64,000 nucleotides of DNA from Mycobacteriales bacterium (GCA_035550055.1 DASZRO010000092.1:2637-66636); one strand, 5' to 3'; positions 46,428-64,000 are shown, counted from the stretch's first letter. A program made the numbers and translations. The notes: generated by a model from the letters alone, not told the origin.

Positions 46428-46501
46428 CGCGGGGTGGAGCAGCTCGGTAGCTCGCTGGGCTCATAACCCAGAGGTCACAGGTTCAAATCCTGTCCCCGCT
46501 A
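46428..46501 (+). tRNA. tRNA-Met (CAT), initiator-like (three G:C pairs in anticodon stem, C1xU72 unpaired); no encoded CCA
   Basis: The cloverleaf folds by hand: acceptor cgcgggg/ccccgct, D-arm gagc..gctc, anticodon stem ctggg/cccag with loop ctCATaa, T-arm acagg ttcaaat cctgt. Confidence 0.85.
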
Positions 46502-46519
46502 CTAGTAAAACCCCAGGTC

Positions 46520-46555
46520 AGGGGCCTGATCACCCATTCGGGTGATCAGGCCCCT
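46520..46555 (+). terminator. perfect 16-bp hairpin (aggggcctgatcaccc attcg ggtgatcaggcccct) 19 nt after tRNA-Met
   Basis: Read from the sequence. tRNA terminator and/or part of an attachment site. Confidence 0.5.
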
Positions 46556-46792
46556 TGATCATTCGTCCGTGGCTCGTCCGTGAACCTGGGGGGACGCAGG
46601 GACACGTCCGGTGACTCGTGCGGCACCGTGAAGGCGCCACAAACGCCTGAGCCGATCGACGATCATCGCCTTGATGCACTTCAAGATCGATCCGGGCCGA
46701 CCCCGCAAAGCTCCCGCTGCGCGTGCCCATTTAGGCCCGAGGATGCCTCTGCTAACCGGGAATGTGTCGGGGGCTCGCAGTAAGTTCCGACC

Positions 46793-47437
46793 ATGTCGAT
46801 TGGTCAGGCCGGCGCGCTGGAGAGCAAGTGCGAGGCGGGGTTGGTAGCCGAGACGATTGCCACATACGACCTCGGCGCCGATGTCTATGGACGACGGTTC
46901 GCGCAAGTCGACATGGGGGTGTATCTCGATCGCTTCGCCGAACTGATTCCGCTAGGCAGCATCACGCTAGATGCGGGCTGTGGTTCTGGTCGGGATCTTG
47001 CCTGGCTGAGAGCTCAGGGTATCCGTGCAGTTGGTCTCGATCGGTCCACGGGAATGCTCAGACTTGCTCGCCGCTCCGTGCAAGGCGGCTTGCTGGTTCG
47101 CGGTGACCTCCGCCGTCTTCCCTTCTCGGCGGCGACGTTCGGCGGTGTCTGGCAATGCGCTTCGCTGGTTCATCTGTCGCGGCCGCAGACGGTGATGGCT
47201 CTCGCTGAAGTCGAGCGCGTGCTGACGCCTGGTGGAGTCGTCTTCCTTTCGGTCGCGACGGGCGGCGAACCGGAATGGCGCGCTTCGTACGCCGGTCGAC
47301 GATGGTTCCATTACTACGACGGTGGCGATCTGAATGCGATGTTGCAAAGCGTCGGCTTGACAGTCCTAACGAGCGCGACGGAGCCGGGCGTGGTTCGCGG
47401 TTCGTGGGTAAACGTCTTCGCGCGGAAGGCCCGATAG
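46793..47437 (+). CDS. class I SAM-dependent methyltransferase
   Basis: Motif I LDAGCGSGRDLAWL, post-I GLDRS, and a Methyltransf_11/25-like layout. Confidence 0.65.
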   Translation: MSIGQAGALESKCEAGLVAETIATYDLGADVYGRRFAQVDMGVYLDRFAELIPLGSITLDAGCGSGRDLAWLRAQGIRAVGLDRSTGMLRLARRSVQGGLLVRGDLRRLPFSAATFGGVWQCASLVHLSRPQTVMALAEVERVLTPGGVVFLSVATGGEPEWRASYAGRRWFHYYDGGDLNAMLQSVGLTVLTSATEPGVVRGSWVNVFARKAR

Positions 47438-48019
47438 TTGATTTCGCTCGTCGCTGCCGATGCTGCCACGAAAGTCTGGGGTATCGATGTCACATTGCTC
47501 GCAGCAGGAGTGGCCGCTGTAGCTGCCATCGCAGCAGCGGGGCTCTCTTACCGCGGGAATCTCGCCACGAACCGAGCTGCTGAGGCTCAGCGGCAGCGTG
47601 ACTATCGGGTTCGCCAGCTCAACGAGCTGTACGGCCCGCTGTACATGAGGCGCCGACTCAGCCGACAACTCTGGAAACAGCTCCCCGGCGTGCCTGATGC
47701 TGAGCCCGGAGTCACCCAGTGGCACCTGATTGATCATGTCGAGGAGATCAAGACCGAGCAAGACGCTCACCGCAGGCAGGTTGTCGAAGAGATTCTTAAA
47801 ATCAATGACGAGCTAACTGGCCTAATCACGGGAAGTGCCGGCCTGCTGGTGGAGTTTCCTGCTCCGCAGAGTTTCGAGACCTTCCTTGTGCATGCGGCGA
47901 CCCTTCGGATGTTCTGGGAGCAGGGCCGGAACGCAACTAAGGCCGCCTACATCCCGTTTCCGGGATCCATCGATCGCGACATTGAGGATGCGATCACTCG
48001 TCTGCGCTCTCAGCTATGA
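47438..48019 (+). CDS. hypothetical membrane-anchored protein (island cargo)
   Basis: N-terminal TM (LLAAGVAAVAAIAAAGL). Locally lower GC. Start abuts the methyltransferase stop. Confidence 0.4.
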   Translation: MISLVAADAATKVWGIDVTLLAAGVAAVAAIAAAGLSYRGNLATNRAAEAQRQRDYRVRQLNELYGPLYMRRRLSRQLWKQLPGVPDAEPGVTQWHLIDHVEEIKTEQDAHRRQVVEEILKINDELTGLITGSAGLLVEFPAPQSFETFLVHAATLRMFWEQGRNATKAAYIPFPGSIDRDIEDAITRLRSQL

Positions 48020-48360
48020 ACTCGACGGATAGTGATGTGACGGACGAGAGCCCGGATGCCGATCTCGACCATGAGTTTCACGTGGAGTCGGAGGCGGCGA
48101 TCGCCGAGTGCCGGTCCTTGGGATACACACCGACCGTCTGGATTTCAATGCTGAGCCAGGTTGGCGCTGCGGAAGCCGCGCGCCGGCTTCTCGTGAGTGG
48201 TGACATTCAGAGTGGGTTTTCACGGCTGGTCGCGCTTGGCAGGCCGGAGCTGACGGTCGAGTGGGCTGCGCTCAACCCTAGGTGGGAGCCTCTATTCGAC
48301 GATCAGCACCGGGAAGCGGCGCGCTGGCGCTTGCGTCAGGCGGGAGTAGAACCGCGCTAA
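48016..48360 (+). CDS. hypothetical acidic protein (island cargo)
   Basis: ATGA overlap with the previous gene. No recognised motif. Confidence 0.4.
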   Translation: MNSTDSDVTDESPDADLDHEFHVESEAAIAECRSLGYTPTVWISMLSQVGAAEAARRLLVSGDIQSGFSRLVALGRPELTVEWAALNPRWEPLFDDQHREAARWRLRQAGVEPR

Positions 48361-48366
48361 CGCGAA

Positions 48367-48510: not shown

Positions 48511-48851
48511 CCGCCGGGGTTCATGTGGCGCATGGGCGGGATCCCAGCCATCGGCGGCGACACCTAAGGCGCGCAATGCTCGGACATACCCCCCCCCCGC
48601 CCGCACCCGTAGTCGAAGACGTGCTGGTCGCGCGAGATGAGCCCATCCCCGAGCGCCAGGGCGATTGGCCGGCACAGACTGCTCCTGGCGATAGCGGTCC
48701 GATGTCTCGGACGCCCGCCGCCGACCCCGGATGGGCTTTACCATCCCGAAGAGCGCCCTTTTCGGGCCCGTCGTCGAGTACGTCCGCATTGTTCACACCT
48801 GGAGGCCCGTCAAGTGTGCCGGCTCCGTCCGACCCGTATGTAGCTGCCGTC

Positions 48852-51050
48852 ATGCCGACCGTCCGCGCCGCCTTCCCGTTCCTCGTTGAGCTGCCTACCG
48901 TCGAAGAATCGCTCGGGCTGGATCTCCGCGGCGATCTCGATGCTCTCAGGCGTCGCGACGACTGGCAGCAGACCGCGGACGCCATCGCGAAGGCGATGGT
49001 CCGGTTCGAAGATCGTCCTGTGGGCGACCTGCTGCCCGGGCTGCGGGACTGGAACGTCCAGATCCCAAGCCACCTGCTACGCACCCGGACGCAGAACCTC
49101 CTTCGCCGCCACGACGTCACGACGTGGGCGGACCTGGCCGGCCTGTCCGTCTACGACCTCGGCCAATTCCGGGGAGCGGGCGCGCAGACAGTCCTCGACC
49201 TTGCCTGCCTCGCAGTAGCCGCGGTCGGGAATCAGAAGGGCTCTGGCGCCCCAGTGGTCGAGGAGCCGTTGACGTTGGAGCAGGACGAGGCGCTACCGCC
49301 CCAGCGAGAGCCGCTCGACCCCGCAGTCGCCCGGATCACAGACGGCCTGCGGACCCTCGCGGCGTGGGCACTACGTGAGCGGCAGCTCGACGAGTTCAAG
49401 GGCCTGGTGCAGCCGGCCGCCGGACTGCAGTTGCCTGAGCCCGTCGCCGCTTTGTGGCATGCAGTCGCCGGCCAACGACTCGAAGACGTCGCCGACCCCG
49501 ATCTCGTGAACGCAGACGTCGCCGAGTTGAGCGCGGCGCTGCTGGACCGGTTCGCGGGCGCCCAGCGGGTCATCCTGGAGCAGCGGCTCCTGAGCTCGAC
49601 GCCGGCGACTCTCGATCAGGTGGGCCAGCAGGTCGGCCTTACCCGCGAGCGAGTACGTCAGCTGCAGACGAAGCTGATCGAGCACCTGACACGCTCGCTG
49701 ACCGAGCGGCAGTTCCTCCCCCTTACCTGGCGCAGCGCCGACCTCGCCGATACGTTGCGCAGCTTCGCTCCAGCGGATGCACCCGAGACCGTTCAGGCGA
49801 TCGACCGTGCGTGCCGCAGCCAGACGGATGAAGGTGCGAGCGAGCTGAAGGCGCTGCTGTTGTACCTGGCCGGTCCGTTCAACCTTCGCGACGGCTGGCA
49901 CATCCGCCGCGGCTCGGAGTTCCCCGACGGTCGAGCCCTGGAGTCAGCGGCGGACGCAAGCCGCACGCTGTCGTTCGAGACGATCGACGAGTGGCTGGAC
50001 GCCAATGGAATCAACACCCTCTTCCGGAGCGTTTGGCTGCAGCACACCGGCCGCTTCCGTGTCATGGGCGACCGCGTCGCCGTTTGGTCGGGTTCGGTCG
50101 TGGACAAGTGCGTGACGTTGCTGGCGATGCGAGGCAGCCCGTGCACGGTAGAGTCGCTTCTCGACGACGTTGGTGAAGGGCACAGCCCGCGAGGCGTCCG
50201 GAACCGGTTCTTCGAAGATCCGCGGCTGATGCGCGTCAACAAGAACGACTGGGCGCTGCGCGCGTGGGACCTCGAGGAATACACGGGCATCGCGGAAGAG
50301 ATTGCCCAGCGCATCGTCGAGTGGGGTGGCAGCGCTCGCATCAGCGACCTCGTCGACGAGCTCGTGCGCCTGTTCGGCGTGAGCGCAGCCTCCGTCCGCG
50401 TCTACGTCGAGGCGCCGATGTTTGTAGTGGAGGGCGGGGTCGTCCGCCTGCGGCGTGAGGACGAGGCCTTCCAGCTCGCTTCCGGACTGTCTCGGGCCCG
50501 CGGTTGTTTCCGCCTCGACGCCAGCCGCATCTCGTACTTGGTGACCGTCGACAAAGATGTTGTCCGCGGCAGCGGCAGGCAGTGCCCGGAGCAGTTTGCC
50601 GCGGCCTTGGGCGTGCGGCCGGGCCAGCCACAGTCGTTCTCGGCCGCGGACGGCACGGTGGCCGTGACTTGGCCCGCGACCTCAGGGTTGGGGCCTTCGC
50701 TCGGGTCGGTCAGGGGACTCGCTGATGATGTCGGCGCTGCGGAAGGCGACTTCCTTCGGCTCGAATTCGATGTCGTCGAGAAGAACGTCGTCGGGCACCT
50801 CGTGACAAGGGCGCTTTTGGACGCCGCCTCTAGTGATGAGGCCGTGCGAATGATGTCGGGACTTGATCTCGGAGCCGATCAGTTGGCGGCCGTGGCGAGG
50901 GCGATCGACGTCGCTGCCGCGGATGTTTTCCGTGTCCTACGTCAACGTGGCGACGACCGGCTCGCCGACCTGCTGCCGCGTCCGGTCGCCGACGAGGCGC
51001 TCCAGCAGGCTCTTGCGGAGCTCGCCGGAACCTTGGACGAGCTCGACTGA
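48852..51050 (+). CDS. large hypothetical DNA-binding protein combining an RNAP alpha-CTD-like HhH and a sigma-70 region-4-like HTH
   Basis: IPSHLLRTRTQNLLRRHDVTTWADLAGLSVYDLGQFRGAGAQTVLDL (alpha-CTD-like) and TLDQVGQQVGLTRERVRQLQTKLIEHL (sigma region-4-like). The start is uncertain (ORF opens at 48525; first plausible ATG at 48852). A C10 tract lies in the upstream part of the ORF. Confidence 0.5.
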   Translation: MPTVRAAFPFLVELPTVEESLGLDLRGDLDALRRRDDWQQTADAIAKAMVRFEDRPVGDLLPGLRDWNVQIPSHLLRTRTQNLLRRHDVTTWADLAGLSVYDLGQFRGAGAQTVLDLACLAVAAVGNQKGSGAPVVEEPLTLEQDEALPPQREPLDPAVARITDGLRTLAAWALRERQLDEFKGLVQPAAGLQLPEPVAALWHAVAGQRLEDVADPDLVNADVAELSAALLDRFAGAQRVILEQRLLSSTPATLDQVGQQVGLTRERVRQLQTKLIEHLTRSLTERQFLPLTWRSADLADTLRSFAPADAPETVQAIDRACRSQTDEGASELKALLLYLAGPFNLRDGWHIRRGSEFPDGRALESAADASRTLSFETIDEWLDANGINTLFRSVWLQHTGRFRVMGDRVAVWSGSVVDKCVTLLAMRGSPCTVESLLDDVGEGHSPRGVRNRFFEDPRLMRVNKNDWALRAWDLEEYTGIAEEIAQRIVEWGGSARISDLVDELVRLFGVSAASVRVYVEAPMFVVEGGVVRLRREDEAFQLASGLSRARGCFRLDASRISYLVTVDKDVVRGSGRQCPEQFAAALGVRPGQPQSFSAADGTVAVTWPATSGLGPSLGSVRGLADDVGAAEGDFLRLEFDVVEKNVVGHLVTRALLDAASSDEAVRMMSGLDLGADQLAAVARAIDVAAADVFRVLRQRGDDRLADLLPRPVADEALQQALAELAGTLDELD

Positions 51051-51051
51051 C

Positions 51052-51474
51052 TTAGGCGAACTCAGAGAGCCGGTTGGTCAAGGTAAGAGTCGGCTCCGCC
51101 TCGCCAAGCAGCTTCTCGATGAGCCAAGCGAACCCGGCGTTGGCGTACTCGGTGGCGATGCGGATCACCTGGGCGGGGCTGTCGAGGACGCCCTTGCCTT
51201 CGACGGCGAGGGCCAGCAATTCGAGATGCGTGATGCGCCACGGGTCGGTCGCCAGGATTGTGCCGTCGTTGAACTTCACGGTCTTGTCTGGCAGGGGTGT
51301 GCGTTGGCGGAGTCGAACGCCGATGCCGAGCGCCACCCACCAGGCATCAACCTGACGGGCGAACGGCCGGGCGTCCTGCGCGGAACGTGAGACGAGGTCA
51401 TCCATGCGATCTCTGACGTCGCTCGCGATGAACAGGTCCTGGTTGGCATAGGGGTTCGCGACGGCGGCGGGCAT
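51052..51474 (-). CDS. hypothetical protein, last gene of phosphorothioation/defence operon (141 aa)
   Basis: Start overlaps the upstream ATPase stop by 1 nt (TGATG). No motif recognised. A DndE-like role is speculative. Confidence 0.45.
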   Translation of the reverse strand: MPAAVANPYANQDLFIASDVRDRMDDLVSRSAQDARPFARQVDAWWVALGIGVRLRQRTPLPDKTVKFNDGTILATDPWRITHLELLALAVEGKGVLDSPAQVIRIATEYANAGFAWLIEKLLGEAEPTLTLTNRLSEFA

Positions 51475-53618
51475 CAGACTGCAGCCTCCACGTCCCGGAA
51501 GTCGATTCCGTGCCGGTCGTCGTACTGACGGGCGCAGATTCGGCACGACTGGTGATGGTCACATGAGCAGGCGCGGACGACCGGATGGTCGATACCCCAG
51601 GGGTTGACGAGGTCGGTCGGGTAGTCCTTCGAACACGAGATGCTGACGATCTCGCCGGCACTGTTGTCAAGGAGCTCTTCGACGTCGCGAATCTCGGAGC
51701 GCGTGAGCAACAGCACCACCTGGAAGTCGGGGAGATCGGCGCCTGACGGCCTGGTGATGCGGTCGACCATCCGCGTTTTCACGCCGCCGGTGATCATCCC
51801 GAGTGGGGTGTCGATGATGCGTGGTGCTGTCGTGCCGGAGACCTCCATCAGCGCCCAGATGAACGAGACGGTCAGGGCACGCTGTGACGCACCGTTCAAC
51901 TCGAAGTCCGTATCCAGCGTCCGGCCGTCGTGCGTGTCGACGATGATGTTGTAGTTCTCATCGATGTGGACGCCTTCGAACACGCCGGCCTCGAACCCGG
52001 GGTGTGATCCGACAATGTCCATGAACAGTTCGTTCATGCGGTCGGACACACGACGAACGTAGTCGCCCTCGAGCATCTCTAGCGTGCCTGCGGCGAGCGC
52101 GGCAAGGTCTTGAGAGACGTCGCGTTTGACAACCAAATCGCCGCTCGCGCGCACCGCTTTCTCCGCTTCGCGCAGTTGTTGGTCCTGCACCTGTCGGCGG
52201 TCATCGAGTTGCTGAATTCTCGCCTGGATCCCGCCGAACTCGGTCCTGGCGTCGCCGATCTTTCGCTCGACGCCGGCGATCTTTCCGGTGAGGTCGCGGA
52301 CGCGGTCCTCGTCGATCTGCCTGCGCCGCTCCTTGAGTTGCTCGAGTTCCGTTGCCTTGGCTGCGAGCGAGTCCTTGGCGTCGGTGAACTCACTGAGCAA
52401 CTTCAGGCGTTGATCTCCGTACGCGTCGTTCTGCTCTTGTCGGGCGTCCTCGGCGGCGCGCGCCTGCCGAGCTGTGTGGAAGAGGCCTGTGAGTCGTTGC
52501 CTGCTGTCTGACTCGGCTCGTTGCTCGTCTCTGAGCTGCTCGACGCGATGACGGTGCCCGGAGCCTGGCTCCAGCGCTTCACCGCAGATGCATTCCTTCA
52601 ACTCGAGCCGGTCGGTGAGTACCTCGATAGAGGTTCCAGGAATGACGCGTCGGTCCACGAGGTCGGAGAGCAGCTTCATTCCCTCGTCGAGCTGGTCACT
52701 CATCAGTGTCCAGGAGATCGCCTCCGAACGCAGCGCCTCCCGCATGCGACCGAGCGCGCGGGCGCGCGCCTTCTCCAGAAGCTCGCGATCGCGCTCGGCC
52801 GTTTCGATGCGCGTGTTCAATTCATCGAGATCACCGAAACCGCGCAGCCCGTTGAGTTCCTTTTCCCAGTTGTTCTTCTGCTCGGTCATGTTGGCGAGTT
52901 GCTCTGTGACCTCGTCCGAACGAGCCCTCTCGTCGGCGAGTTCTGCCTCGGTTTCTTCGAGGGCAGTTTCGAGCTTGGACGTGTCCGAGCCGCCTGACCT
53001 TGAGACCTCAGCGCGGAGCTTCTTGAAGACGAATTCCAGGTCTTCCTTGGCTGTGCGTAGCGTGTCCAAGCTCAGCAACATCCTGATTGACCGATGGACT
53101 CGGTCTTGCCGCTGCTGGCTGGACACGCTCCCCGAGATGAAGGTCTGAACGTCGTCGCCGTTGGTGAAGAAGATGTCCTTCAACCGCAGCGGGATGAACT
53201 TTCCGATCAGCGCGTCGGCGCCCTCGATCTCGTCTTCGCCGGCAGACGTGATCTTGAACAGCCGAACGCGGTCACGCCCCCGGTCGACCTTGTCGCCGGC
53301 TTGCGGCGTCTCCGTCACGCTGCGAACAACCCGATAGCGCGTCGTGATGTCGTTGTCATCGGTGTGTTCGAACTCCACCATGACCGAGATCTCGACCGGC
53401 GTGCCGGCAGGTAGCGCCGTGGATGTCAAGCGACGGGCGGAGTCGGGGAGCCCTGGCATCCCGTAGAACGCCCAAAGCAGCGCGTACAAGATCGAGGTCT
53501 TGCCCGAGCCGTTCTCCGCCCGAATCACTGTTAGTGGCTTCTTCGGGTCGGTGGAGAAGTTGATCTTCACGTTCTCCAGCAGCTTGAAGTTCTCGATATG
53601 AGTGCGGATGAGGCGCAC
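51474..53618 (-). CDS. SMC/ABC-type ATPase (DndD/AAA_23-like N-terminus) with coiled coil and C-terminal Cys/His cluster
   Basis: MRLIRTHIENFKLLENVKINF...VIRAENGSGKTSILYALLWAFYG (Walker A). Long coiled-coil middle. Walker B/D-loop RIIDTPLGMI. C-terminal CSCDHHQSCRIC. GTG start overlaps the upstream ORF stop (TAGTG). Confidence 0.7.
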   Translation of the reverse strand: MRLIRTHIENFKLLENVKINFSTDPKKPLTVIRAENGSGKTSILYALLWAFYGMPGLPDSARRLTSTALPAGTPVEISVMVEFEHTDDNDITTRYRVVRSVTETPQAGDKVDRGRDRVRLFKITSAGEDEIEGADALIGKFIPLRLKDIFFTNGDDVQTFISGSVSSQQRQDRVHRSIRMLLSLDTLRTAKEDLEFVFKKLRAEVSRSGGSDTSKLETALEETEAELADERARSDEVTEQLANMTEQKNNWEKELNGLRGFGDLDELNTRIETAERDRELLEKARARALGRMREALRSEAISWTLMSDQLDEGMKLLSDLVDRRVIPGTSIEVLTDRLELKECICGEALEPGSGHRHRVEQLRDEQRAESDSRQRLTGLFHTARQARAAEDARQEQNDAYGDQRLKLLSEFTDAKDSLAAKATELEQLKERRRQIDEDRVRDLTGKIAGVERKIGDARTEFGGIQARIQQLDDRRQVQDQQLREAEKAVRASGDLVVKRDVSQDLAALAAGTLEMLEGDYVRRVSDRMNELFMDIVGSHPGFEAGVFEGVHIDENYNIIVDTHDGRTLDTDFELNGASQRALTVSFIWALMEVSGTTAPRIIDTPLGMITGGVKTRMVDRITRPSGADLPDFQVVLLLTRSEIRDVEELLDNSAGEIVSISCSKDYPTDLVNPWGIDHPVVRACSCDHHQSCRICARQYDDRHGIDFRDVEAAV

Positions 53619-56840: not shown

Positions 56841-59800
56841 TTGCGCACCCTTCGTGCGTTCACGTTCTTCTTGGTGGCGTCGGTAGCTGGCGTGGCAGCG
56901 CTCCCTGCAGTGTGCGTTTGCCGGCTGGCGAGCAGTGCGAGCACGGTGTCTTCAGCCAGGCCGTCGGAGCCGAGGCGGGTCGCGACACGGGCGATCAACG
57001 CGTCGACTTCCGTGGCGATGGCGATCCGCTGATGCTCATCGACCCACACAACGCGGGCGCTCTCCGCTCCGTCGGGCAGCGTCACCGTGACGCGCATGGC
57101 TTCGAAGCCGTCCTGCTGGCTGGCGAGATGATCGTGGTTGAGAGCTTCGAGGCGGCGGAACGTGCCGCCGATCTCTCGCAGGGCACTGAAGAACCCGACG
57201 CGGTCGTCGTCGGTCCACGTCTGCGGCGGCAGTTCCGAGACGGTCATCGCGACGTACTCGGTCCAGTTGTTGTCGTCGTCGCCGGTTTCGGATGTGATCG
57301 CCGACAGGAAGGCCCGCATCCGCGGCTGGATGACCTTGCCGACGAGCAAGGCTCCTCGCTCGGCGAGGTTCGCCCGCAGACGCTCGCGTGGCACTCCGCA
57401 CACGTCGCTGATGCGGCCGCGGATTTCGTCGAGGAGTGCGGGATACGAGTTCTGGATTTCGGTGACCGCCGCCACGATCTGATCGGTCAGCGCTGTTAAT
57501 TGCCGCGGGGTGTAGGACGCGCCGGGATCTAGGGGCGGCAGATCGAACGCGGCGGGGAGAGCGCGGAACAGCAGCTCGTCAGGCTCGGTCGCGGCTTCGA
57601 GCGCCTGCCGGAATCGCAGCGTCGCGTCGCTCAAGTGTCGGGTCTTGCGGATGTGCTCGGGAGCGACTGCGACGACCTGCATCAGTTGCGCCACGACGGC
57701 GAGGACGCCGCCGCTGCGGAAGCCGGTGCCGGTGAGCGTTGCGGGCAACCGCGCGGGGAGCTTTTCAATGAGGGCTTGTCGTCCGCCGGAGCGGCTCGCG
57801 AAGTGCTTGATCTGGAAGTGCGCGGGATTGCGGACGAGTCGTTCGAGAACCTCGGGAGTAACAGCGGGCCGGAACGTGCCGTGTTCGTAGAGGGCGACCT
57901 GTTCACCGTGGACGAGCAACGCCGCGGTGAACAGGACCGGCGCGAGTCCGGCGCGCAAGCCGTACGGGGGAGCGGCGAGCCGGTCGAACAGCTCATCGAG
58001 CGCCACTCGTCCCGTCGTCGCCTGGTTGAACGTGCGCACGATCGCGTCCCACACTGGCTTGTACCCGGAGCGCGACGTGGGCTGCGCGAACCGCCACGAG
58101 TCGCCGTCCTGACGGTGCATGCCCGTGTCGTTGAGAATCGCCTCGTACATCGCGCGCTCGGGGCCGAAGCCCTCGATGCCGAGCCGCGGCGCCTCGGCGT
58201 CGCTGAGCATCGCCTCCAGCAGCTCCCGGCGCGCCTTGGCGGCCTGCGAGGACAGCTCATGACGGTTGATCAAGTCGTTGCGGACCCGTGGCGCCTTGGA
58301 GTAGACGTCGTCCGCTACCCACGACAGCGCGGCCGAGCCCGCTGGGGCGTCGATCACCGTTGACTGCCCGTTATCGCCGAGCAGGGACCAGCGATTGCCC
58401 TTCGCAGCGGGTCCGAAGACGGATTCGAAGGCGGCGTCGAGGGTCGTGACCGCTTCGGCGAGCCGCTCCTCGAGTTCCCGCTGAGCGACCCAGTCGATGC
58501 CAGCGACGGGATCGTTGCTGCTGAGCACGTCGCCGAGCGCAGCCGCCTCGATCGCGGCCTCCGTGACCGCGCCGACGTTGCGTGCGGTGACGATGACGAC
58601 AGGCTTGGCGCTTGCGCGGCTTTCGATGACGTCGCGCGGGAGCGGGCTGAGGGCATAGAGAACGCTTCCGTCGCAGCGGTCGGCCGACGTCGCGGGGGTG
58701 ACACGGCTTTGCCCGTCGACCCAGTGCCGGGTGAAGGTGCGCAGCGTCCCCGTCTCGTGACTGTGACGGCCGGCGACGAGCGGAGGCAGCGGACGAATGC
58801 GTTCGAGCAGCGTGGCGACGGACTCGCCGCGCAGCCGGCGCCGCGCCTGGTCGATGGCGTTCTTGAGGTCGAAGTCGCTGCCTTGCCAGACCCGGTACTC
58901 ATCGGCAAAGTCGCGGAAGGTGATCAGACCGAGCGCTTCGAGCTCTTTCAGGCGACGTTCCACCGCCTTGGCGTCTTGCGTTCCCGGCGCGCCGTCCGCA
59001 GCGGACCACGCGACGATCTGTTTCGACGCGCGCAGCGCGCCGCCCGACGCGACGAGGTTGAGCAGACCGACTGTGCGCACGACACGACGCTGCGCGGCGT
59101 CGAGCCCGTGGGCATCCCGGATTCGGGTGTCGACCTCCAGCCAGCGGCTCGCTGCGCTCGACACGGAGGCGAGGGTCGAAGCGGACTCGAGGAAGTAGCC
59201 GTAGAGGCGGTCGAGTCGCACGCACGGCAGCTCATCGTCGCCCGCGGGAAGGGCCGTGTCCTTCAACCAGGAGTGAATGCCTTTCGGCTCGCTGCCGGCC
59301 AGGAACGAAAACAGCGTGCGTTCGTTCTGTCCGTAGCGTTGGCACAGTTCAGGGAGCACGAGCAGCGCGAGAGGATGTAGGGGCCAAGTGCGTGCGAGAA
59401 CCGCGTCGTCCGCAAGGTCACCGAGCCCGGCAAGCCTCGCGCGTGCCGCCTGATCGGCGGCCCAGCGAGCCGTTCGCTGCGTGAACGCGCGGTTGGAAGA
59501 GTCGTTGAACGCCGCAGCGATCAGGGTCCGTGTTTGCGCCGGACTGTCAACGAACGGAACGTCTTCGAAGCGTCCCTGGATCTTCGCCCATTCGCGGCGA
59601 TGCGCAGCGGTCGCTCCTAGCGCGTAGTCGTCGAATGCCATGTGCTGCATCGTCACGAGGACGAGCGGAAGCGCCCGCTCGCCCCGAGTCCATTCCGCGA
59701 GGTCCTGCAGTAGGAACAGATCGGCGTCGCTGCGCGAGTCGGCGAATGCTTCGAGGTTCTTGCCGAACTCGTCGATGACAATCAGCACCGGCGCTGCCTC

Positions 59801-60382
59801 GGTCATCGTCTGCAAGCACGCCTTGATCTCACGCGCCTCGATGTGACGGGGCGTGCCTGCCGTCGCTTGCCGCTGGAGTTGGTCGAGGCGTCGACCCAAG
59901 CCGGCGAACTCCGCGCGCTGCGTTCGCGCCGGGAACCGTTCGATGCCGGAGCGCAAGGCTCGCACAACCGTCAGAGCGACCGGCTCGCGTTGTGCGGTGA
60001 CGAGGCAGCGGATGAAGCCGTCCCGGTCCGCATTCATGTCGCGGCGCGCGGCCACGAGCAGGCGGGCCGTGTCCGGGTCGGCGTTGAAGAGCAGGTCGTC
60101 AGCGGCAACGCGTGCGCGATCGCCGGTAGGTCCGAGCAACGCGTCGATGAGGATGGCGAGGCTGGACTTGCCAGAACCGTAGGGCCCGGTCACGGAAAGC
60201 GCGCGTTCGACGTCGTTGCGGCTCAAGCTGACGGCGAGCCGGTGGACGGTGTCGATGGCACGCGCGACCGGGAGATAGCTTTCGATCGACTCGCTGCCCG
60301 CGTCACGCTCGACGTTGATCGACCGTGCGAACCGTGGCTTCGGCGCGCGGAAGTCCAGCATCGAATGCTTGGCGGGGGTCAT
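56837..60382 (-). CDS. large P-loop ATPase, BrxC/PglY-like (DUF499-type), SspC-like
   Basis: 1181 aa. Walker A VTGPYGSGKSSLA near the N-terminus and Walker B LIVIDEFGKN. The size and layout match BREX BrxC-type proteins as I recall them. ATGA overlap with the DUF4007 gene stop (start at 60382, inside the 60589 ORF). Confidence 0.65.
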   Translation of the reverse strand: MTPAKHSMLDFRAPKPRFARSINVERDAGSESIESYLPVARAIDTVHRLAVSLSRNDVERALSVTGPYGSGKSSLAILIDALLGPTGDRARVAADDLLFNADPDTARLLVAARRDMNADRDGFIRCLVTAQREPVALTVVRALRSGIERFPARTQRAEFAGLGRRLDQLQRQATAGTPRHIEAREIKACLQTMTEAAPVLIVIDEFGKNLEAFADSRSDADLFLLQDLAEWTRGERALPLVLVTMQHMAFDDYALGATAAHRREWAKIQGRFEDVPFVDSPAQTRTLIAAAFNDSSNRAFTQRTARWAADQAARARLAGLGDLADDAVLARTWPLHPLALLVLPELCQRYGQNERTLFSFLAGSEPKGIHSWLKDTALPAGDDELPCVRLDRLYGYFLESASTLASVSSAASRWLEVDTRIRDAHGLDAAQRRVVRTVGLLNLVASGGALRASKQIVAWSAADGAPGTQDAKAVERRLKELEALGLITFRDFADEYRVWQGSDFDLKNAIDQARRRLRGESVATLLERIRPLPPLVAGRHSHETGTLRTFTRHWVDGQSRVTPATSADRCDGSVLYALSPLPRDVIESRASAKPVVIVTARNVGAVTEAAIEAAALGDVLSSNDPVAGIDWVAQRELEERLAEAVTTLDAAFESVFGPAAKGNRWSLLGDNGQSTVIDAPAGSAALSWVADDVYSKAPRVRNDLINRHELSSQAAKARRELLEAMLSDAEAPRLGIEGFGPERAMYEAILNDTGMHRQDGDSWRFAQPTSRSGYKPVWDAIVRTFNQATTGRVALDELFDRLAAPPYGLRAGLAPVLFTAALLVHGEQVALYEHGTFRPAVTPEVLERLVRNPAHFQIKHFASRSGGRQALIEKLPARLPATLTGTGFRSGGVLAVVAQLMQVVAVAPEHIRKTRHLSDATLRFRQALEAATEPDELLFRALPAAFDLPPLDPGASYTPRQLTALTDQIVAAVTEIQNSYPALLDEIRGRISDVCGVPRERLRANLAERGALLVGKVIQPRMRAFLSAITSETGDDDNNWTEYVAMTVSELPPQTWTDDDRVGFFSALREIGGTFRRLEALNHDHLASQQDGFEAMRVTVTLPDGAESARVVWVDEHQRIAIATEVDALIARVATRLGSDGLAEDTVLALLASRQTHTAGSAATPATDATKKNVNARRVRK

Positions 60383-61419
60383 CCTGCCACCTTCGCCTTG
60401 CCGCGGCTCGAACTCGCCGTGACGATGCTCGCGGGTTCGTCGCCGGCGGTTCCCGCGATTGGCGTCTCCGCCGGTTGCGCGTCCGGGTTTACGTGGAGGT
60501 AGTGCGCGTGCAGAACCTTGGTCGCGATCGCGGCCGGATCGCCGTCGAACGTCAGCTGGGTGACGCCAGTCGTCGTGATGAGCCGGCACCGGGGGCCGCT
60601 GAGGGGCAGCGCCTGTTCGATGTGTTCAATCAGGGACTGTTCGCTGATTCGGAATGCACGGCCCGGTCCGCCAGGCTCGGTCGCCAGTCGCGACATCGTC
60701 ACGGTCCGCGCGGTCGTGTCGGTTCGGGCGACGAAATCCAACGCGGCGAAGAGCACGACCGCGGACGGCAGGCCGGGTTTGCGCGACGAGACGAATCGGT
60801 AGCGGCGCCTGCCCGTGCCGGGGCGCAGCAGGCCGAGTTCGCGGAACGGGCAATCAACCAGGTCATCGGAGGTTGGCCGGCCACCTTCGGCTTCGGCCGT
60901 ATACATCCGGAGCAGGCAGTCGATGTCCTTCTTCAACGAGCCGGAGTGCACGTCGTCCCAGTCGCTGACGCCATCGACGAATTCGGAGACGAACGCTCGC
61001 AGATCGTCGTCGCCGAAGTCCAGCGCAGGAAATTCGTGGAACGTCACCCACCATGCGGGCGCGAGTGACGGCGGCGCCAACAGCCACCAGTGGAGCAGCC
61101 ACAGCGTGGCCCGGTCCTCGCAATACGGATCCCAGCCGTCGCCACCGAACAGCGTGACGCCGATGCGCGAGGGCACAGTTTTGGGCATGCGCAGGCGTTC
61201 TGGATCGGCTTCCTGGGTCAGCAGCTTGGTCGCGAGACCCCAGAACCTGATCGAGCGCACCATGTTCTTGCCAACACCGAGTTGGACAACGGCGTCGTCT
61301 CGCGTGAACATGCGCGGGTCGGCGGTCGCGCCGTCCACGGCCTTCTTCATCCACCCATACCTAGGGTGAAATGATTCGTGCCGCGCGAAAGCGGGAGTCG
61401 CGCTTGCCTCGAGTCTCAT
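60379..61419 (-). CDS. DUF4007 family protein (SspB-like)
   Basis: N-terminal FARHESFHPRYGWMKKA, the signature I associate with DUF4007/SspB. Its start overlaps the cysteine desulfurase stop by 4 nt. The true start is an internal Met of the 61575 ORF. Confidence 0.65.
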   Translation of the reverse strand: MRLEASATPAFARHESFHPRYGWMKKAVDGATADPRMFTRDDAVVQLGVGKNMVRSIRFWGLATKLLTQEADPERLRMPKTVPSRIGVTLFGGDGWDPYCEDRATLWLLHWWLLAPPSLAPAWWVTFHEFPALDFGDDDLRAFVSEFVDGVSDWDDVHSGSLKKDIDCLLRMYTAEAEGGRPTSDDLVDCPFRELGLLRPGTGRRRYRFVSSRKPGLPSAVVLFAALDFVARTDTTARTVTMSRLATEPGGPGRAFRISEQSLIEHIEQALPLSGPRCRLITTTGVTQLTFDGDPAAIATKVLHAHYLHVNPDAQPAETPIAGTAGDEPASIVTASSSRGKAKVAG

Positions 61420-62633
61420 GCCAACGCGCCGGCGGGCGTCGTCGCGGCCGTGGCATCGGTCGGGATGTCCGGGTGCGTGAGATCCCGGACCCGGTTCACC
61501 GCGGCCGCGAGGAGCGCCGCCGCCTCGGCGATCTCGGATCGCGTGGTCGGTCGGCCGACGCTGATGCGCACGCACTCGGATGCGGCTTCGTCGTCAGCGA
61601 GCATCGCGCGCAGGACATGCGACGGTCCGGGAACGCTCGAGGTGCACGCGCTGCCCGACGACAGCGCGAGCGTCGGCGCGTTAGCTATAACGGCGTCCGC
61701 GTCGGCTCCGGCGAATCGCCAGTTCCGGGTGTTGGCGAGTCGCGGTGGGCCGGCTGCTCCGGATGACGGCGAGACGATGTCGATCGGCGCGCATCCGGCG
61801 ATCACGAGTTTGTCGTGCAGATGGTCGATCAGCTCAGCGAAATGCTGGACGTCGGCCGCCAGCCGCGTCCTCGCGATGGCGGCAGCAGCGCCCATGCCCA
61901 CGATGGCGGGGACGTTGAGCGTGCCCGGTCGCAGTCCGCGCTCGTGGCCGCCTCCGTGCATCAGCGGCTCGATGCGGATGCCGCGGCGGATATACAGCGC
62001 GCCGACGCCCTTGGGGCCATACATCTTGTGACCGCTGAAGGACGCCATATCGACGTCGAGCGCGTCGAGGTCGATCGCGAGCCTGCCTGCCGCCTGCGTC
62101 GCGTCGGTGTGGGTGATCGCACCCGCCTGGTGGGCGAGTTCGTTGATGCGGGCGAGTGGCTGGATGACCCCGGATTCGTTGTTGGCGAGCATCACGGTCA
62201 CGAGACCAATGTCGTCCCCGAGTGTCGCCGCGAGTTGATCAAGGTCGAGCAGCCCGTCCGGGGCGACCGGAAGAAGCTCGATCTTGTAACCGTGATCTTG
62301 GGCCCAGGTCAGCGGTTCCAGCACCGCCTTGTGCTCCGTCAGGGGAGCAATGATCCGACGCCGATTGTCCGGCAATGCGGAGAGCGCGCCGAGAAGCGCA
62401 AGGTTGTTCGCCTCGGTGGCACCTGACGTGAAGACGATCTCGCCCGGGCGCGCACCGACGAGCTCAGCCAGCCGTGCGCGCGCGTCGTCGACCGCGGCGT
62501 GCGCCATTCGGCCCGGTAGATGATGACTCGCCGGGTTCGCGAACGCGCTGGTCAGCCACGGCTGCATGACGTCCAGCACAGCGCCGTCGATGGGCGTGCT
62601 GGCGTTGTAGTCGAGGTAGATCGCGTCACGCAC
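61416..62633 (-). CDS. cysteine desulfurase (class V aminotransferase; SspA/DndA/IscS-like)
   Basis: AIYLDYNASTP, TSGATEANNLAL, PLP-Lys motif SFSGHKMYGPKGVGALY, catalytic Cys loop SSGSACTS. GTG start near 62633. Confidence 0.8.
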   Translation of the reverse strand: MRDAIYLDYNASTPIDGAVLDVMQPWLTSAFANPASHHLPGRMAHAAVDDARARLAELVGARPGEIVFTSGATEANNLALLGALSALPDNRRRIIAPLTEHKAVLEPLTWAQDHGYKIELLPVAPDGLLDLDQLAATLGDDIGLVTVMLANNESGVIQPLARINELAHQAGAITHTDATQAAGRLAIDLDALDVDMASFSGHKMYGPKGVGALYIRRGIRIEPLMHGGGHERGLRPGTLNVPAIVGMGAAAAIARTRLAADVQHFAELIDHLHDKLVIAGCAPIDIVSPSSGAAGPPRLANTRNWRFAGADADAVIANAPTLALSSGSACTSSVPGPSHVLRAMLADDEAASECVRISVGRPTTRSEIAEAAALLAAAVNRVRDLTHPDIPTDATAATTPAGALA

Positions 62634-62908
62634 GGAGATGGCCCCAGTTCGGTGTCGTGTGGTGTCCACCGTATGGCGTGGATGCGACAGAAAGCACCCC
62701 CGACATGCGACCTGGGGATGCGGGTCGGTCAGCCGAGTAGGCACAAGATCACGGACCTCCTTCATCTGCCGGCGATGAGCGGGCGGCACGGCAGACCTGC
62801 TCTGCCAGTCCTGCAATTACGCGTGGCAGGCCTCGGACGACGGCACGCCCGGCACAAGCTGGGAAGCCAGAGAGTCCGCTGGAGCTTCTCGCCTCGAGCG
62901 GGAGTCCG

Positions 62909-63079
62909 CTATGTCCGATGTCGCTCACGGGGCTCCGCGCCAAGCAGCGCCGTGACTTGGGCCAGCGGGATTAGTAGTCGCCGGCCTATCCGGACTGCAG
63001 GTAGTTCACCACTACGCACCGCCCGGAATGCGGAGTTGCGCGAGATGCCGAGCACTTGCGCGGCCTCCTCGACGGTCAT
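62909..63079 (-). CDS. excisionase-family helix-turn-helix DNA-binding protein
   Basis: MTVEEAAQVLGISRNSAFRAVRSGELPAVRIGRRLLIP matches the Xis/MerR-type HTH_17 pattern. Confidence 0.55.
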   Translation of the reverse strand: MTVEEAAQVLGISRNSAFRAVRSGELPAVRIGRRLLIPLAQVTALLGAEPRERHRT

Positions 63080-63296
63080 CGTTAGACGCTCAGGGCCGGC
63101 CATGCGCGGTCACTCCTTACGTATGAGTCAGTCGTCGACGAGGAATCACAGTTGGCTGACGCCCCCGGGGCGTCCCCCAGGAGGTCCCGTACCGATTGCG
63201 TGACCGCGGCCGTGTCCATCGGAACAGTGGGGCGCTCGAGCAGACCCTGCGCCTCCGACGCCGGCGTCGCGAGTGCGGTGCCAGCGGTGGGCGCGC

Positions 63297-63686
63297 TCAT
63301 CGGCCGCGCGCCACTACCGCGTCACCGCGCGACGCATCACATCTGACATGCGATGGCGGAAGGTCCGGGTCGGGCGGCCAGGTCGGTTGGCGCAGCAGCA
63401 CCTGCCGGTCGCGGAAGACACGTTCGGCGTCGGCGACACCGAACCCGGCGTCGATGAGGGTTTCCATGGCGGCGCGGGGGGCCTCGCCGGGGTAGCCGGC
63501 GGTCAGGCCGGACAGGAACATCCGGTTGCCTTGGTCGTCGCGCAGCTCGAAACAGTACGGGTAGTGCTCGGACAGTCCTGGGAAGCTGATCTCGGCGGCG
63601 ATGATGGTGCCGAGTTCGTGGCGGTGGTCGCGGTAGTAGGCGATCGAGCCGGCGGGGTTGCCGTCGCCGCTGTCGAAGTAGTTCAT
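63297..63686 (-). CDS. hypothetical protein
   Basis: The N-terminal ~100 aa are protein-like. The C-terminal part is Arg/Pro-rich and may be an over-extension. Confidence 0.3.
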   Translation of the reverse strand: MNYFDSGDGNPAGSIAYYRDHRHELGTIIAAEISFPGLSEHYPYCFELRDDQGNRMFLSGLTAGYPGEAPRAAMETLIDAGFGVADAERVFRDRQVLLRQPTWPPDPDLPPSHVRCDASRGDAVVARGR

Positions 63687-63870
63687 GGTTGGTCCTTCCG
63701 CCAGATTGATGTGCTGCCGGAGGGATCACACGTCGGGGGTGTACCCCGAGACGTACCGGTTTGCGTACCGCTCGGCGTACCACCGCGAGGGATCCGCTGC
63801 CCTCAAGGTCAGTGGACGGGTTCCGGCCTGGCCCGTCCCGTCGGGTGGACCAGGCCGGGCCGCGTCGGTG

Positions 63871-64000
63871 TCAGGTGAAGCTGGTGGTGACGTGCAGCCC
63901 TCGGGTGCGCAGGGTGGCGGCGAGGCGCCGGAGCTCGGATTCGAGGACGTCACACTGAGCGGCGACCGCAACGGCGCTGAGGTTGGCCGGGCCACGCAGC
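63871..64000 (-). CDS. 3' end of an unannotated minus-strand gene continuing beyond the window (…CDVLESELRRLAATLRTRGLHVTTSFT*)
   Basis: Open frame to the window edge with protein-like composition. Not in the ORF track because no start lies inside the window. Confidence 0.25.
   Translation of the reverse strand, partial: LRGPANLSAVAVAAQCDVLESELRRLAATLRTRGLHVTTSFT

What the first reader, a model, noticed from the sequence alone, without database searches (positions are those of the whole stretch)
46428..64000. Genomic island inserted next to an initiator-like tRNA-Met
Downstream of the tRNA there is a perfect 16-bp hairpin, a ~230-bp non-coding stretch, then visibly GC-poorer cargo for this genome (methyltransferase plus two hypotheticals, e.g. 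gagattcttaaaatcaatgacgagctaactggcctaatcacg). The defence operon and an excisionase-family HTH gene (62909..63079) follow. tRNA genes are classical integration sites. The integrase and the distal attachment repeat are probably beyond the window end.
Basis: partly seen in the sequence, partly recalled or inferred. Interest (0 to 1): 0.6.

Follow-up and report, generated by a model that had tools for sequence, protein, structure and literature searches.

The report
Conjugative element inserted at initiator tRNA
The 17.5 kb after the initiator tRNA-Met gene is one end of a conjugative mobile element that carries an eight-gene DNA-phosphorothioation anti-phage cassette; this is an ordinary kind of genomic island, but its own integrase and far end could not be seen.

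Summary
An initiator-type tRNA-Met (46428-46502) is followed by a strong hairpin, about 232 bp of non-coding DNA, and GC-poorer genes.

The island reading also holds and can be sharpened.
- **Empty site in a relative.** A related Mycobacteriales species matches the window at about 80% nucleotide identity for 12 kb, up to about 21 bp past the tRNA. It then continues with housekeeping genes (SRPBCC, Lon, RNase II) that are absent from the window.
- **Composition.** GC3 and tetranucleotide usage shift at the tRNA.
- **Conjugative backbone.** The rightmost window genes (HTH_17 and a conserved 129-aa gene) belong to a type IV secretion conjugative element family. The source contig's coupling protein lies two genes beyond the window end, judged by consecutive GenBank accessions.
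- **tRNA targeting in relatives.** One relative ends in a tyrosine integrase beside a 43-nt partial tRNA-fMet copy. Another abuts tRNA-Arg and shares 23 of 26 nt of the junction sequence with the window.

The cargo is SspABCD followed by a complete PbeABCD module, plus four other genes.

No integrase and no att repeat lie in the window. In two relatives the integrase directly follows HTH_17; here the cargo fills that slot. Present-day mobility is therefore unresolved. This is a new member of a known kind, of modest interest.

The parts
46428..46502 (+). Initiator-type tRNA-Met (CAT). It is the presumed attB and left boundary of the element, and its 3' end faces the island.
   Evidence: ARAGORN and Rfam RF00005 at 63 bits. 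The C1xU72 mismatch and GGG/CCC anticodon stem are read from the sequence. The gene is identical in the related species L003, where synteny ends just after it.
46459..46501 (+). 43-nt segment from the anticodon loop to the 3' end. It matches the partial tRNA-fMet copy found next to the integrase of the related element L032. It is a candidate att core by analogy only.
   Evidence: L032 16824-16866 matches this 43-mer with 2 mismatches and lies 182 bp from a tyrosine integrase gene. No second copy occurs in the window.
46504..46529 (+). Junction motif directly after the tRNA (A GTAAAACCCCAGGTCAGGGGCCTGA). It is the presumed element-borne att arm.
   Evidence: 23 of 26 nt are identical, in the same register, to the sequence after tRNA-Arg(CCG) at the cargo end of the related element L029 (18622->18597). 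Only 14 of 26 (my count) match the empty site of L003.
46516..46560 (+). Strong stem-loop with a perfect 16-bp core (46520-46535 / 46540-46555). It probably terminates the tRNA transcript. It replaces a different hairpin seen at the empty site.
   Evidence: Fold energy -40.7 kcal/mol, z = -6.7. L003 has an unrelated 12-bp hairpin at the same place.
46561..46792 (.). Non-coding arm of 232 bp. It holds two 9-bp direct repeats (TCGTCCGTG at 46563-46571 and 46574-46582), 11 bp apart start to start.
   Evidence: Sequence reading. No Rfam family matches. A role as recombinase or regulator binding sites is inference only.
46793..47437 (+). Class I SAM-dependent methyltransferase (214 aa). Cargo.
   Evidence: Pfam Methyltransf_11 and Methyltransf_25, E = 1e-18. 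GC3 0.68.
47438..48019 (+). 193-aa protein of unknown function. This is the lowest-GC gene of the island.
   Evidence: No Pfam, PADLOC or NCBIfam match. GC 0.595, GC3 0.65.
48016..48360 (+). 114-aa protein of unknown function.
   Evidence: No family match. It is called as a gene in an independent assembly.
48816..51050 (+). 744-aa protein with an internal sigma-70 region-4 HTH (the ORF is open from 48525). It converges on pbeD with no spacer.
   Evidence: Pfam Sigma70_r4, E = 4e-6. NCBIfam matches cover the sigma region-4 part only. A homologue lies directly upstream of a PbeA homologue on an Arthrobacter replicon.
51052..51474 (-). PbeD-like protein, a cognate of DndE (140 aa).
   Evidence: Weak TIGR04062 dnd_assoc_4 match, E = 1e-5 and below the curated cut-off. 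It is 39% identical to the gene in the same position of the Sphingomonadaceae plasmid cassette.
51474..53618 (-). PbeC, a DndD-like CxC-type ABC ATPase (714 aa).
   Evidence: PADLOC PbeC, E = 1e-49; DndD, E = 5e-37. TIGR03185 matches below its cut-off. A C-I-C motif sits at residues 343-345.
53618..53830 (-). PbeB-position small protein (70 aa).
   Evidence: Called in an independent assembly. No HMM match. A small gene occupies the same position in the plasmid cassette.
53848..56007 (-). PbeA, the 'DNA phosphorothioation system restriction enzyme', with an SF2 helicase domain (719 aa).
   Evidence: PADLOC PbeA, E = 5e-180 over nearly the full length. TIGR04095, E = 2e-108, below its curated cut-off (363 bits against 600). 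Pfam ResIII, DEAD and Helicase_C.
56004..56840 (-). SspD (PAPS-reductase-like).
   Evidence: PADLOC SspD, E = 9e-108. Pfam PAPS_reduct.
56837..60382 (-). SspC ATPase (1181 aa as called in the Logan assembly; the ORF is open to 60589).
   Evidence: PADLOC SspC at 1185 bits. Walker A motif GPYGSGKS.
60379..61350 (-). SspB (DUF4007).
   Evidence: Pfam DUF4007, E = 2e-82. PADLOC SspB, E = 2e-99.
61416..62633 (-). SspA cysteine desulfurase.
   Evidence: PADLOC SspA, E = 2e-130. Pfam Aminotran_5.
62909..63103 (-). HTH_17 'excisionase-family' gene, the xis-like gene of the conjugative-element backbone.
   Evidence: Pfam HTH_17 and TIGR01764. It is 57-62% identical to the HTH_17 genes of L033 and L031. 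In L033 and L039 this gene is followed directly by a tyrosine integrase.
63082..63300 (-). 72-aa gene between the backbone gene and HTH_17. This slot is variable in relatives.
   Evidence: Called in an independent assembly. No family match.
63297..63686 (-). Conserved 129-aa backbone gene (GenBank HWA67425.1). Function unknown.
   Evidence: 51 homologues were found. In L029, L031, L033, L039 and L042 the homologue sits downstream of the T4SS coupling protein, separated from it only by a ~197-aa gene (L031 also has an IS transposase there); in L032 a divergent 242-aa homologue holds that slot. The AlphaFold model has pLDDT 80 but no PDB match at E < 0.2.
63864..64000 (-). 3' part of a 65-aa gene (HWA67426.1) that runs off the window. 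Two genes further on the same contig lies the T4SS coupling protein (HWA67428.1).
   Evidence: The coupling protein has no match inside the window.

Best explanation
Window 46.5-64 kb is the tRNA-proximal end of an integrative conjugative element of the type IV secretion kind found in Actinomycetota, or an island derived from one. It sits in the chromosome of an uncultured Mycobacteriales bacterium and is at least 26.5 kb long.

**How it most likely works (inferred).** The element entered by site-specific recombination with the 3' part of the initiator tRNA-Met gene. That leaves an intact tRNA, now followed by element DNA: a conserved junction motif, a new terminator hairpin and a 232-bp arm.

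**Layout, reading inwards from the tRNA.**
1. About 16 kb of cargo: a methyltransferase, two unknown genes and a sigma-region-4 protein on one strand; on the other strand, one co-directional run of eight genes, sspABCD then pbeABCD, a phosphorothioate modification and restriction defence cassette.
2. The element backbone, which starts with the xis-like HTH_17 gene and a conserved 129-aa gene.
3. Beyond the window, the type IV coupling protein and, presumably, the rest of the mating apparatus.

**Shown versus inferred.** Shown: the insertion relative to a related species, the composition shift, the gene identities, the backbone homology, and the coupling protein on the same contig. Inferred: the recombination mechanism, the att core, where the integrase lies, and whether the element can still excise and transfer.
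For: 1. **Empty site in a relative.** L003, whose flanking GGDEF-EAL protein is 83% identical, is collinear with window 33.5-46.52 kb at about 80% nucleotide identity. The alignment stops 21 bp after the tRNA. L003 then carries SRPBCC, Lon, RNase II, MFS, TetR and MMPL genes, none of which has a match in the window.
2. **Composition.** GC, GC3 and tetranucleotide usage change at the tRNA and stay deviant up to about 63 kb (the last window, 61-64 kb, is back within the upstream range).
3. **Backbone homology.** Homologues of the 129-aa gene (64-87% identity) and of HTH_17 sit at the end of a conserved block: DUF6112, a TrbL-like gene, a VirB4-like AAA_10 gene, an NlpC/P60+SLT hydrolase, the VirD4/TraG coupling protein, a ~197-aa gene, the 128-aa gene, then HTH_17. 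Variable, defence-rich cargo follows in L029, L031 and L032; in L033 and L039 a tyrosine integrase follows directly.
4. **Coupling protein on the same contig.** P0055 is 83% identical to the L029 coupling protein and lies on a 73,076-bp contig. Its accession is HWA67428.1, two after the window's last gene (HWA67426.1). It has no match in the window.
5. **tRNA targeting in relatives.** L032 ends with a tyrosine integrase 182 bp from a 43-nt partial tRNA-fMet copy. L029 ends at an intact tRNA-Arg with the same geometry as the window, and shares 23 of 26 nt right after the tRNA.
6. **Independent assembly.** A Logan contig from run SRR12170510 reproduces window 46476-63537 at 100% identity. It breaks inside the tRNA and inside the conserved 129-aa gene. 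This fits unique cargo flanked by sequences shared with other genomes in the sample.
7. **One element, not two.** No partial tRNA copy separates the cargo from the backbone.
Against: - No integrase, other recombinase or att direct repeat lies in the window. Pfam, NCBIfam and PADLOC scans of all main ORFs found none, and tblastn with two relatives' integrases gave nothing below E = 0.4.
- In L033 and L039 the integrase directly follows HTH_17. Here sspA does, so the integrase may have been lost.
- The backbone is oriented the opposite way relative to the tRNA compared with L032. The recombination module of this element is therefore not the one seen there.
- Neither the right end of the element nor the expected SRPBCC-Lon flank could be retrieved. 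The source contig is not in the searchable contig collections.
- The only close empty-site comparison is one MAG of another species. A second relative's contig (L004) ends 2 nt after the tRNA.
- VirB4 and a relaxase were not seen for this element itself.
Confidence: 0.8

Rival explanations
1. The element is an immobilised remnant. It integrated at tRNA-fMet, but its integrase, which normally follows the xis-like gene, was replaced by the Ssp-Pbe cargo. What remains is a fixed defence island with leftover conjugation genes.
For: In L033 and L039 the gene order is 128-aa gene, (small gene) HTH_17, tyrosine integrase. In the window HTH_17 is followed by sspA, and no integrase or fragment of one exists between HTH_17 and the tRNA.
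Against: L029 has the same integrase-less geometry at a different tRNA and shares the junction motif. That points to a recurrent, functional configuration with the recombinase elsewhere. The tRNA, the junction and all cargo ORFs are intact. The coupling protein is full length at 587 aa.
Confidence: 0.3
2. Two separate insertions lie in tandem: a non-conjugative defence island (46.5-62.9 kb) next to the tRNA, and an unrelated conjugative element beyond it.
For: Tandem accretion at tRNA sites is well known in actinobacterial elements (PMC3218068, read). Cargo GC is heterogeneous, lower at 46.5-57 kb than at 57-63 kb.
Against: No internal att or partial tRNA copy lies between the cargo and the backbone. 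Relatives carry variable defence cargo in exactly this slot, downstream of HTH_17. The junction motif next to the tRNA is shared with L029, whose cargo is unrelated.
Confidence: 0.08
3. The junction is an assembly artefact. The cargo and conjugation genes belong to an extrachromosomal or excised element whose attP contains the tRNA 3' segment, and the metagenome assembler joined it to the chromosome through the shared tRNA sequence.
For: The source is a metagenome-assembled genome. The independent Logan contig stops inside the tRNA at 46476 and so does not confirm the junction with the chromosome.
Against: The same geometry, core genes then an intact tRNA then cargo then backbone, appears in an independent JGI assembly, L029. 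L032 shows an integrated state with a partial tRNA copy. A shared core of about 43 nt is short compared with typical final assembly k-mers; that last point is my inference.
Confidence: 0.05
4. The region is ancestral and was deleted in the compared species, rather than inserted here.
For: Only one informative empty-site genome (L003) was available.
Against: The region differs in composition from its own genome. Its content is conjugation and defence genes. Backbone homologues sit at other chromosomal sites, next to other tRNAs, in other genomes.
Confidence: 0.03

Closest known systems
T4SS-type integrative conjugative elements of Actinobacteria (17 putative examples catalogued by Ghinet et al. 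2011, PMC3218068), and tRNA-integrating ICEs in general
   Same: Insertion lies at the 3' end of a tRNA gene. The backbone has a VirD4-type coupling protein, a VirB4-like ATPase, a TrbL-like protein and a cell-wall hydrolase. An xis-like HTH_17 gene is paired with a tyrosine integrase in relatives. Cargo is variable, and GC is lower than in the host.
   Different: For this copy, the integrase, the relaxase and the second att site were not seen. The closest plasmid coupling proteins are below 50% identical, so this is an undescribed lineage known only from soil metagenomes and MAGs. Recombination modules differ between family members: tRNA-fMet with a reversed integrase in L032, xis-int with no tRNA in L033 and L039, and no visible integrase in L029 or here.
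FtsK/TraB-type actinomycete ICEs (AICEs such as pSAM2 and SLP1)
   Same: They are actinobacterial, integrate in the 3' ends of tRNA genes and have xis-int modules (PMC3218068).
   Different: Those elements transfer double-stranded DNA with a single FtsK-like TraB protein. This family encodes a T4SS with a VirD4-type coupling protein.
SspABCD-SspE and SspABCD-SspFGH phosphorothioate defence systems (PMC8092258; Xiong et al. 2020, as cited there)
   Same: All four modification genes sspA-D are present, in the usual order and with strong profile matches.
   Different: The adjacent restriction partner is neither SspE nor SspFGH. It is a complete PbeABCD (CxC-ATPase-anchored) module.
DndCDEA-PbeABCD of haloarchaea (PMC6459918), reinterpreted as CxC ABC-ATPase/DndE-anchored systems (PMC10853773)
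   Same: The parts match: a PbeA helicase-nuclease (PADLOC E = 5e-180), a small PbeB-position gene, a PbeC with a CxC motif, and a DndE-like PbeD.
   Different: Here the module is coupled in one co-directional gene run to Ssp genes rather than Dnd genes. It is also carried as cargo of a conjugative element in an actinobacterium.

Membership tests
tRNA-integrated genomic island / ICE | Insertion immediately 3' of a tRNA gene, absent from the same locus in a related genome | tested here: met
   Synteny with L003 ends 21 bp after the tRNA. L003 continues with SRPBCC, Lon and RNase II genes that are absent from the window.
tRNA-integrated genomic island / ICE | Composition different from the host chromosome | tested here: met
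   GC3 is 0.65-0.85 against 0.90-0.96. Tetranucleotide L1 distance is 0.21-0.38 against 0.178 +/- 0.027.
tRNA-integrated genomic island / ICE | Flanking direct repeats (attL/attR) that contain the tRNA 3' segment | not testable with these tools
   No repeat lies in the window. The distal end lies beyond the window and probably beyond the 73-kb contig. The source contig could not be fetched.
tRNA-integrated genomic island / ICE | Site-specific recombinase (integrase) encoded by the element | tested here: inconclusive
   None is found in 46.5-64 kb. Relatives L032, L033 and L039 do encode tyrosine integrases. The rest of this element was not seen.
tRNA-integrated genomic island / ICE | Conjugation machinery: coupling protein, VirB4 ATPase and relaxase | tested here: inconclusive
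   The coupling protein is on the same contig, two genes past the window. VirB4-like and other T4SS genes were seen only in relatives. No relaxase was identified anywhere.
Bacterial initiator tRNA (tRNA-fMet) | CAU anticodon, a mismatch at positions 1:72, and three consecutive G:C pairs in the anticodon stem | tested here: met
   Anticodon CAT. The C1xU72 mismatch and GGG/CCC stem are read from the sequence. That these features define initiators rests on established knowledge.
SspABCD phosphorothioate modification module | SspA cysteine desulfurase, SspB (DUF4007), SspC ATPase and SspD (PAPS-reductase-like) in one operon | tested here: met
   PADLOC E-values are 2e-130, 2e-99, 0 and 9e-108. 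The genes are co-directional and overlapping or closely spaced.
PbeABCD (CxC ABC-ATPase-anchored system) | PbeA helicase-nuclease, small PbeB, CxC-type ABC ATPase PbeC, and DndE-like PbeD | tested here: met
   PbeA E = 5e-180. PbeC E = 1e-49, with a CIC motif at residues 343-345. A 70-aa gene fills the PbeB position. PbeD has only a weak TIGR04062 match (E = 1e-5) but is 39% identical to the gene in the same position of a collinear plasmid cassette.
Excisionase / recombination directionality factor | Small HTH_17 (MerR-like) protein encoded next to, and acting with, an integrase | tested here: inconclusive
   The domain is present. Orthologues in L033 and L039 directly precede a tyrosine integrase. 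In this window no integrase is adjacent, and activity is not testable.

The most novel reading that the evidence does not exclude
The eight-gene run sspABCD-pbeABCD may be a single functional phosphorothioate defence system in which a Pbe (CxC-ATPase/HKD-helicase) module acts as a third kind of restriction partner for Ssp-type modification. It would be disseminated across phyla on mobile elements. The same collinear eight genes, at 31-43% identity, sit on a Sphingomonadaceae plasmid next to an integrase. The papers I could search name only SspE and SspFGH as Ssp partners, and describe Pbe alongside Dnd modification genes or standing alone, never with Ssp.

A second, less likely reading is that elements with the window/L029 geometry use an unrecognised recombination module. 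They share a tRNA-flanking motif and show no integrase near the tRNA.
Probability: 0.5. Interest if true: 0.5.

Novelty: new member of a known kind. Interest (0 to 1): 0.35.

Why it matters
The finding places a phosphorothioate defence cassette on a conjugative element in a poorly studied, uncultured group of soil Mycobacteriales. It also defines a conserved ~10-kb T4SS backbone, from DUF6112 to the xis-like gene, flanked by variable regions rich in defence-type genes. That backbone can serve as a search handle for defence cargo in Actinomycetota.

The element itself is an ordinary kind of thing. The more useful by-product is the recurrent Ssp-Pbe pairing. About 84% of sspBCD loci have no known restriction partner (PMC8092258), and this pairing suggests an untested partner for some of them.

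Tried and rejected
- **Extending the window rightwards failed.** Exact-protein look-ups of the 129-aa gene, P0001, P0052 and P0055 found no record. A genome contigs and a metagenome-contig scan with the 129-aa protein each returned 600 pattern hits and no true relative. The count of exactly 600 twice suggests a cap, so these negatives are weak. An exact 64-mer from the window end was absent from JGI metagenomes.
- **Viral contigs** had no relative of the coupling protein.
- **The Logan contig breaks at 46476 and 63537** were considered as island boundaries and rejected as evidence. Both fall in sequences conserved across genomes (the tRNA and the 129-aa gene), so assembly-graph branching is expected there anyway.
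- **The 42-aa window-end ORF** was tested as the C-terminus of the ~197-aa backbone protein and shows no similarity. It is a separate 65-aa gene.
- **Integrase remnants** were sought with tblastn using the L032 and L033 integrases. Nothing was found.
- **Plasmid database.** The closest coupling proteins are below 50% identical, so no named plasmid family applies.
- **L005** (Frankiaceae) has no tRNA after the GGDEF-EAL gene and was uninformative.

Full report
**Observation**

The window carries a single tRNA gene, tRNA-Met(CAT), at 46428-46502 on the + strand. Read directly from the sequence, it has a C1xU72 mismatch at the top of the acceptor stem and a GGG/CCC anticodon stem. By established knowledge these are the marks of a bacterial initiator tRNA.

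It is followed by a stem-loop at 46516-46560 with a perfect 16-bp core (-40.7 kcal/mol, z = -6.7). Next come 232 bp without a plausible ORF, then genes with lower GC. Every descriptive element of the finding is correct. The HTH gene is slightly longer than stated, at 62909-63103.

**Is the region foreign?**

Three independent lines say yes.

1. *Comparative.* The GGDEF-EAL gene that ends at 46374 has orthologues in three MAGs. L003, a Mycobacteriales MAG with 83% protein identity, aligns with the window from 33.5 kb to 46523 at about 80% nucleotide identity, and the alignment then stops. Its tRNA-fMet is identical. Downstream it has a different hairpin and then SRPBCC, Lon protease, RNase II, MFS, TetR and MMPL genes. 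None of these has any counterpart in the window. L004's contig ends 2 nt after the tRNA.
2. *Composition.* GC3 of island genes is 0.65-0.85 against 0.90-0.96 for upstream genes. Tetranucleotide distance to the upstream reference is raised in every 3-kb window from 46 kb onwards up to 63 kb, at 0.23-0.38; the last window (61-64 kb) reads 0.21. Upstream windows average 0.178 +/- 0.027 with a maximum of 0.26.
3. *Flank.* The left flank is ordinary chromosome: citrate synthase, enoyl-CoA hydratase, UPF0182, histidine kinases and MacB/HlyD transporters.

**What is it?**

The source is a GenBank TPA metagenome-assembled Mycobacteriales genome. The 129-aa ORF at 63297-63686 is HWA67425.1 (VG899_13780) on a 73,076-bp contig.

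This small protein has 51 homologues, almost all from soil metagenomes. I examined the neighbourhoods of six homologues (L029, L031, L032, L033, L039, L042). In each, the gene (in L032 a divergent 242-aa homologue) lies at the end of a conserved co-directional block; L042's 4.2-kb contig shows only the part from the coupling protein onward:
- DUF6112
- a TrbL-like protein
- a ~470-aa protein
- ArdC (sometimes)
- a VirB4-like AAA_10 ATPase
- a ~130-aa protein
- an NlpC/P60+SLT hydrolase
- the VirD4/TraG coupling protein
- a ~197-aa protein
- the 128-aa protein
- a variable small gene
- HTH_17

This is the transfer module of a T4SS-type conjugative element. The window holds the last part of that block (129-aa gene, 72-aa gene, HTH_17) on the - strand.

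The coupling protein of the source genome was recovered as P0055. It is 83% identical to L029's protein, lies on a contig of the same length (73,076 bp), and has accession HWA67428.1. That is two genes after the 65-aa gene (HWA67426.1) that runs off the window end. It has no match inside the window. The transfer module therefore starts just beyond 64000. The element spans at least 46.5-73 kb if the window begins at the contig start, which I assume but cannot check.

**Relation to tRNA genes**

- In L032 the order is HTH_17, a short cargo, a tyrosine integrase on the opposite strand, and then, 182 bp away, a 43-nt partial tRNA-fMet running from the anticodon loop to the 3' end. It has 2 mismatches to the window's tRNA. 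This is the classic footprint of integration into a tRNA gene, so a family member uses the same target gene.
- In L029, 8 kb of unrelated cargo downstream of HTH_17 ends at an intact tRNA-Arg(CCG) whose 3' end faces the element. Core genes follow (fatty-acid desaturase, ArgS). This is the window's geometry exactly.
- The 26 nt that begin at the last base of the CCA-equivalent position are 23/26 identical between the window (46504-46529) and L029, although the tRNAs differ. Only 14/26 match at the empty site of L003. A match of that quality in precisely the same register is very unlikely by chance. I read it as a homologous element-borne att arm, which places the element boundary at the tRNA 3' end.
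- In L033 and L039, HTH_17 is followed directly by a 451-461-aa tyrosine integrase. In L039 ordinary chromosomal genes follow at once. HTH_17 is therefore the family's xis-like gene.

**What is missing**

The window has no integrase or other recombinase, no integrase fragment and no second copy of the tRNA 3' segment.

The core orientation relative to the backbone is opposite to that in L032. So the window and L029 carry a different, unseen recombination module, or none. I put about 0.3 on the element being an immobilised remnant.

The absence of an internal att copy, together with the recurrence of variable cargo in this same slot in relatives, argues against two tandem insertions.

An independent Logan assembly reproduces 46476-63537 at 100% identity. 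It breaks inside the tRNA, however, so it does not by itself confirm the chromosome-element junction. I rate an assembly chimera as unlikely, because L029 and L032 show integrated states in independent assemblies.

**Cargo**

On the - strand there is one co-directional run of eight genes:
- SspA, SspB (DUF4007), SspC and SspD (PADLOC E-values from 2e-99 to 0).
- PbeA (E = 5e-180; TIGR04095 'DNA phosphorothioation system restriction enzyme').
- A 70-aa gene in the PbeB position.
- PbeC (E = 1e-49; CIC motif at residues 343-345).
- A 140-aa DndE-like gene in the PbeD position.

These rest. PMC10853773 equates PbeABCD with CxC-ATPase/DndE-anchored systems, which matches these features.

The same collinear eight genes occur on a Sphingomonadaceae plasmid beside an integrase. 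The papers available to me describe SspE and SspFGH as the partners of Ssp, and describe Pbe alongside Dnd genes or standing alone, never with Ssp. The pairing therefore looks recurrent but uncharacterised.

On the + strand, running from the tRNA side, lie a class I methyltransferase, two unknown genes, and a 744-aa protein with a sigma-70 region-4 HTH. A homologue of the last sits directly upstream of a PbeA homologue in an Arthrobacter replicon.

**Verdict**

It can be sharpened to 'the tRNA-proximal cargo end of a T4SS-type conjugative element'. This is a new member of a known kind, and interest is modest. The open points are the integrase, the distal att site and present-day mobility.

Noticed in passing
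window 51052-62633 (- strand); L043 2787-13885: sspABCD is directly followed by a complete pbeABCD in one co-directional run of eight genes. The same collinear cassette (31-43% identity per protein) lies on a Sphingomonadaceae plasmid (CP099618.1) beside a site-specific integrase. I found no paper that describes Ssp paired with Pbe.
   Followed up: partly
window 48816-51050 (+); L044 6932-8650: The 744-aa protein with an internal sigma-70 region-4 HTH has a homologue (25% identity over 620 aa) directly upstream of a PbeA homologue in Arthrobacter sp. StoSoilB13. This hints at a functional link to Pbe systems. In the window its stop codon abuts the pbeD stop (51050/51052) with no spacer.
   Followed up: partly
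window 43440-43680: About 15 tandem copies of a 15-nt unit (GCSTGGAACGCSTCS) encode an A-W-N-A-S pentapeptide repeat at the C-terminus of an S8 subtilase (41940-43667). The repeat is partly conserved in L003, L004 and L005.
   Followed up: no
window 46563-46582: Two 9-bp direct repeats (TCGTCCGTG), 11 bp apart start to start, lie just after the post-tRNA hairpin. They are possible protein-binding sites in the att arm. L029 has different repeats (TGACCACA twice, plus an inverted copy) at the equivalent place.
   Followed up: no
L029, L031, L032, L033, L039 (upstream of the DUF6112 gene): A second variable region lies upstream of the conserved T4SS block. It holds GmrSD, a PIN toxin, a deaminase-domain protein or a large helicase in different elements. 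The ~10-kb backbone is therefore flanked on both sides by variable regions.
   Followed up: no
window 63297-63686; alignment A2: The 129-aa backbone protein is more conserved than the coupling protein (64-87% against 69-83% identity). It has 22 invariant residues and a confident predicted fold (pLDDT 80), but no Pfam family and no PDB structural match.
   Followed up: partly
window 17.4-25 kb and 39-42 kb: The otherwise core left flank has patches of deviant composition (tetranucleotide L1 distance up to 0.26, strong AT skew). Several large ORFs there have no Pfam match (20780-22318, 23011-24525, 17465-18718).
   Followed up: no
L033 13470-20387: Downstream of the integrase of a related element lie NaeI-like, MZB-domain, large helicase and NERD genes, an apparent defence cluster. 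It is unclear whether they lie inside or outside that element.
   Followed up: no
window 48586-48596: A run of about ten C residues lies in the 456-bp gap between the 114-aa gene and the called start of the 744-aa gene. It could be a slippage-prone tract or an assembly weak point.
   Followed up: no
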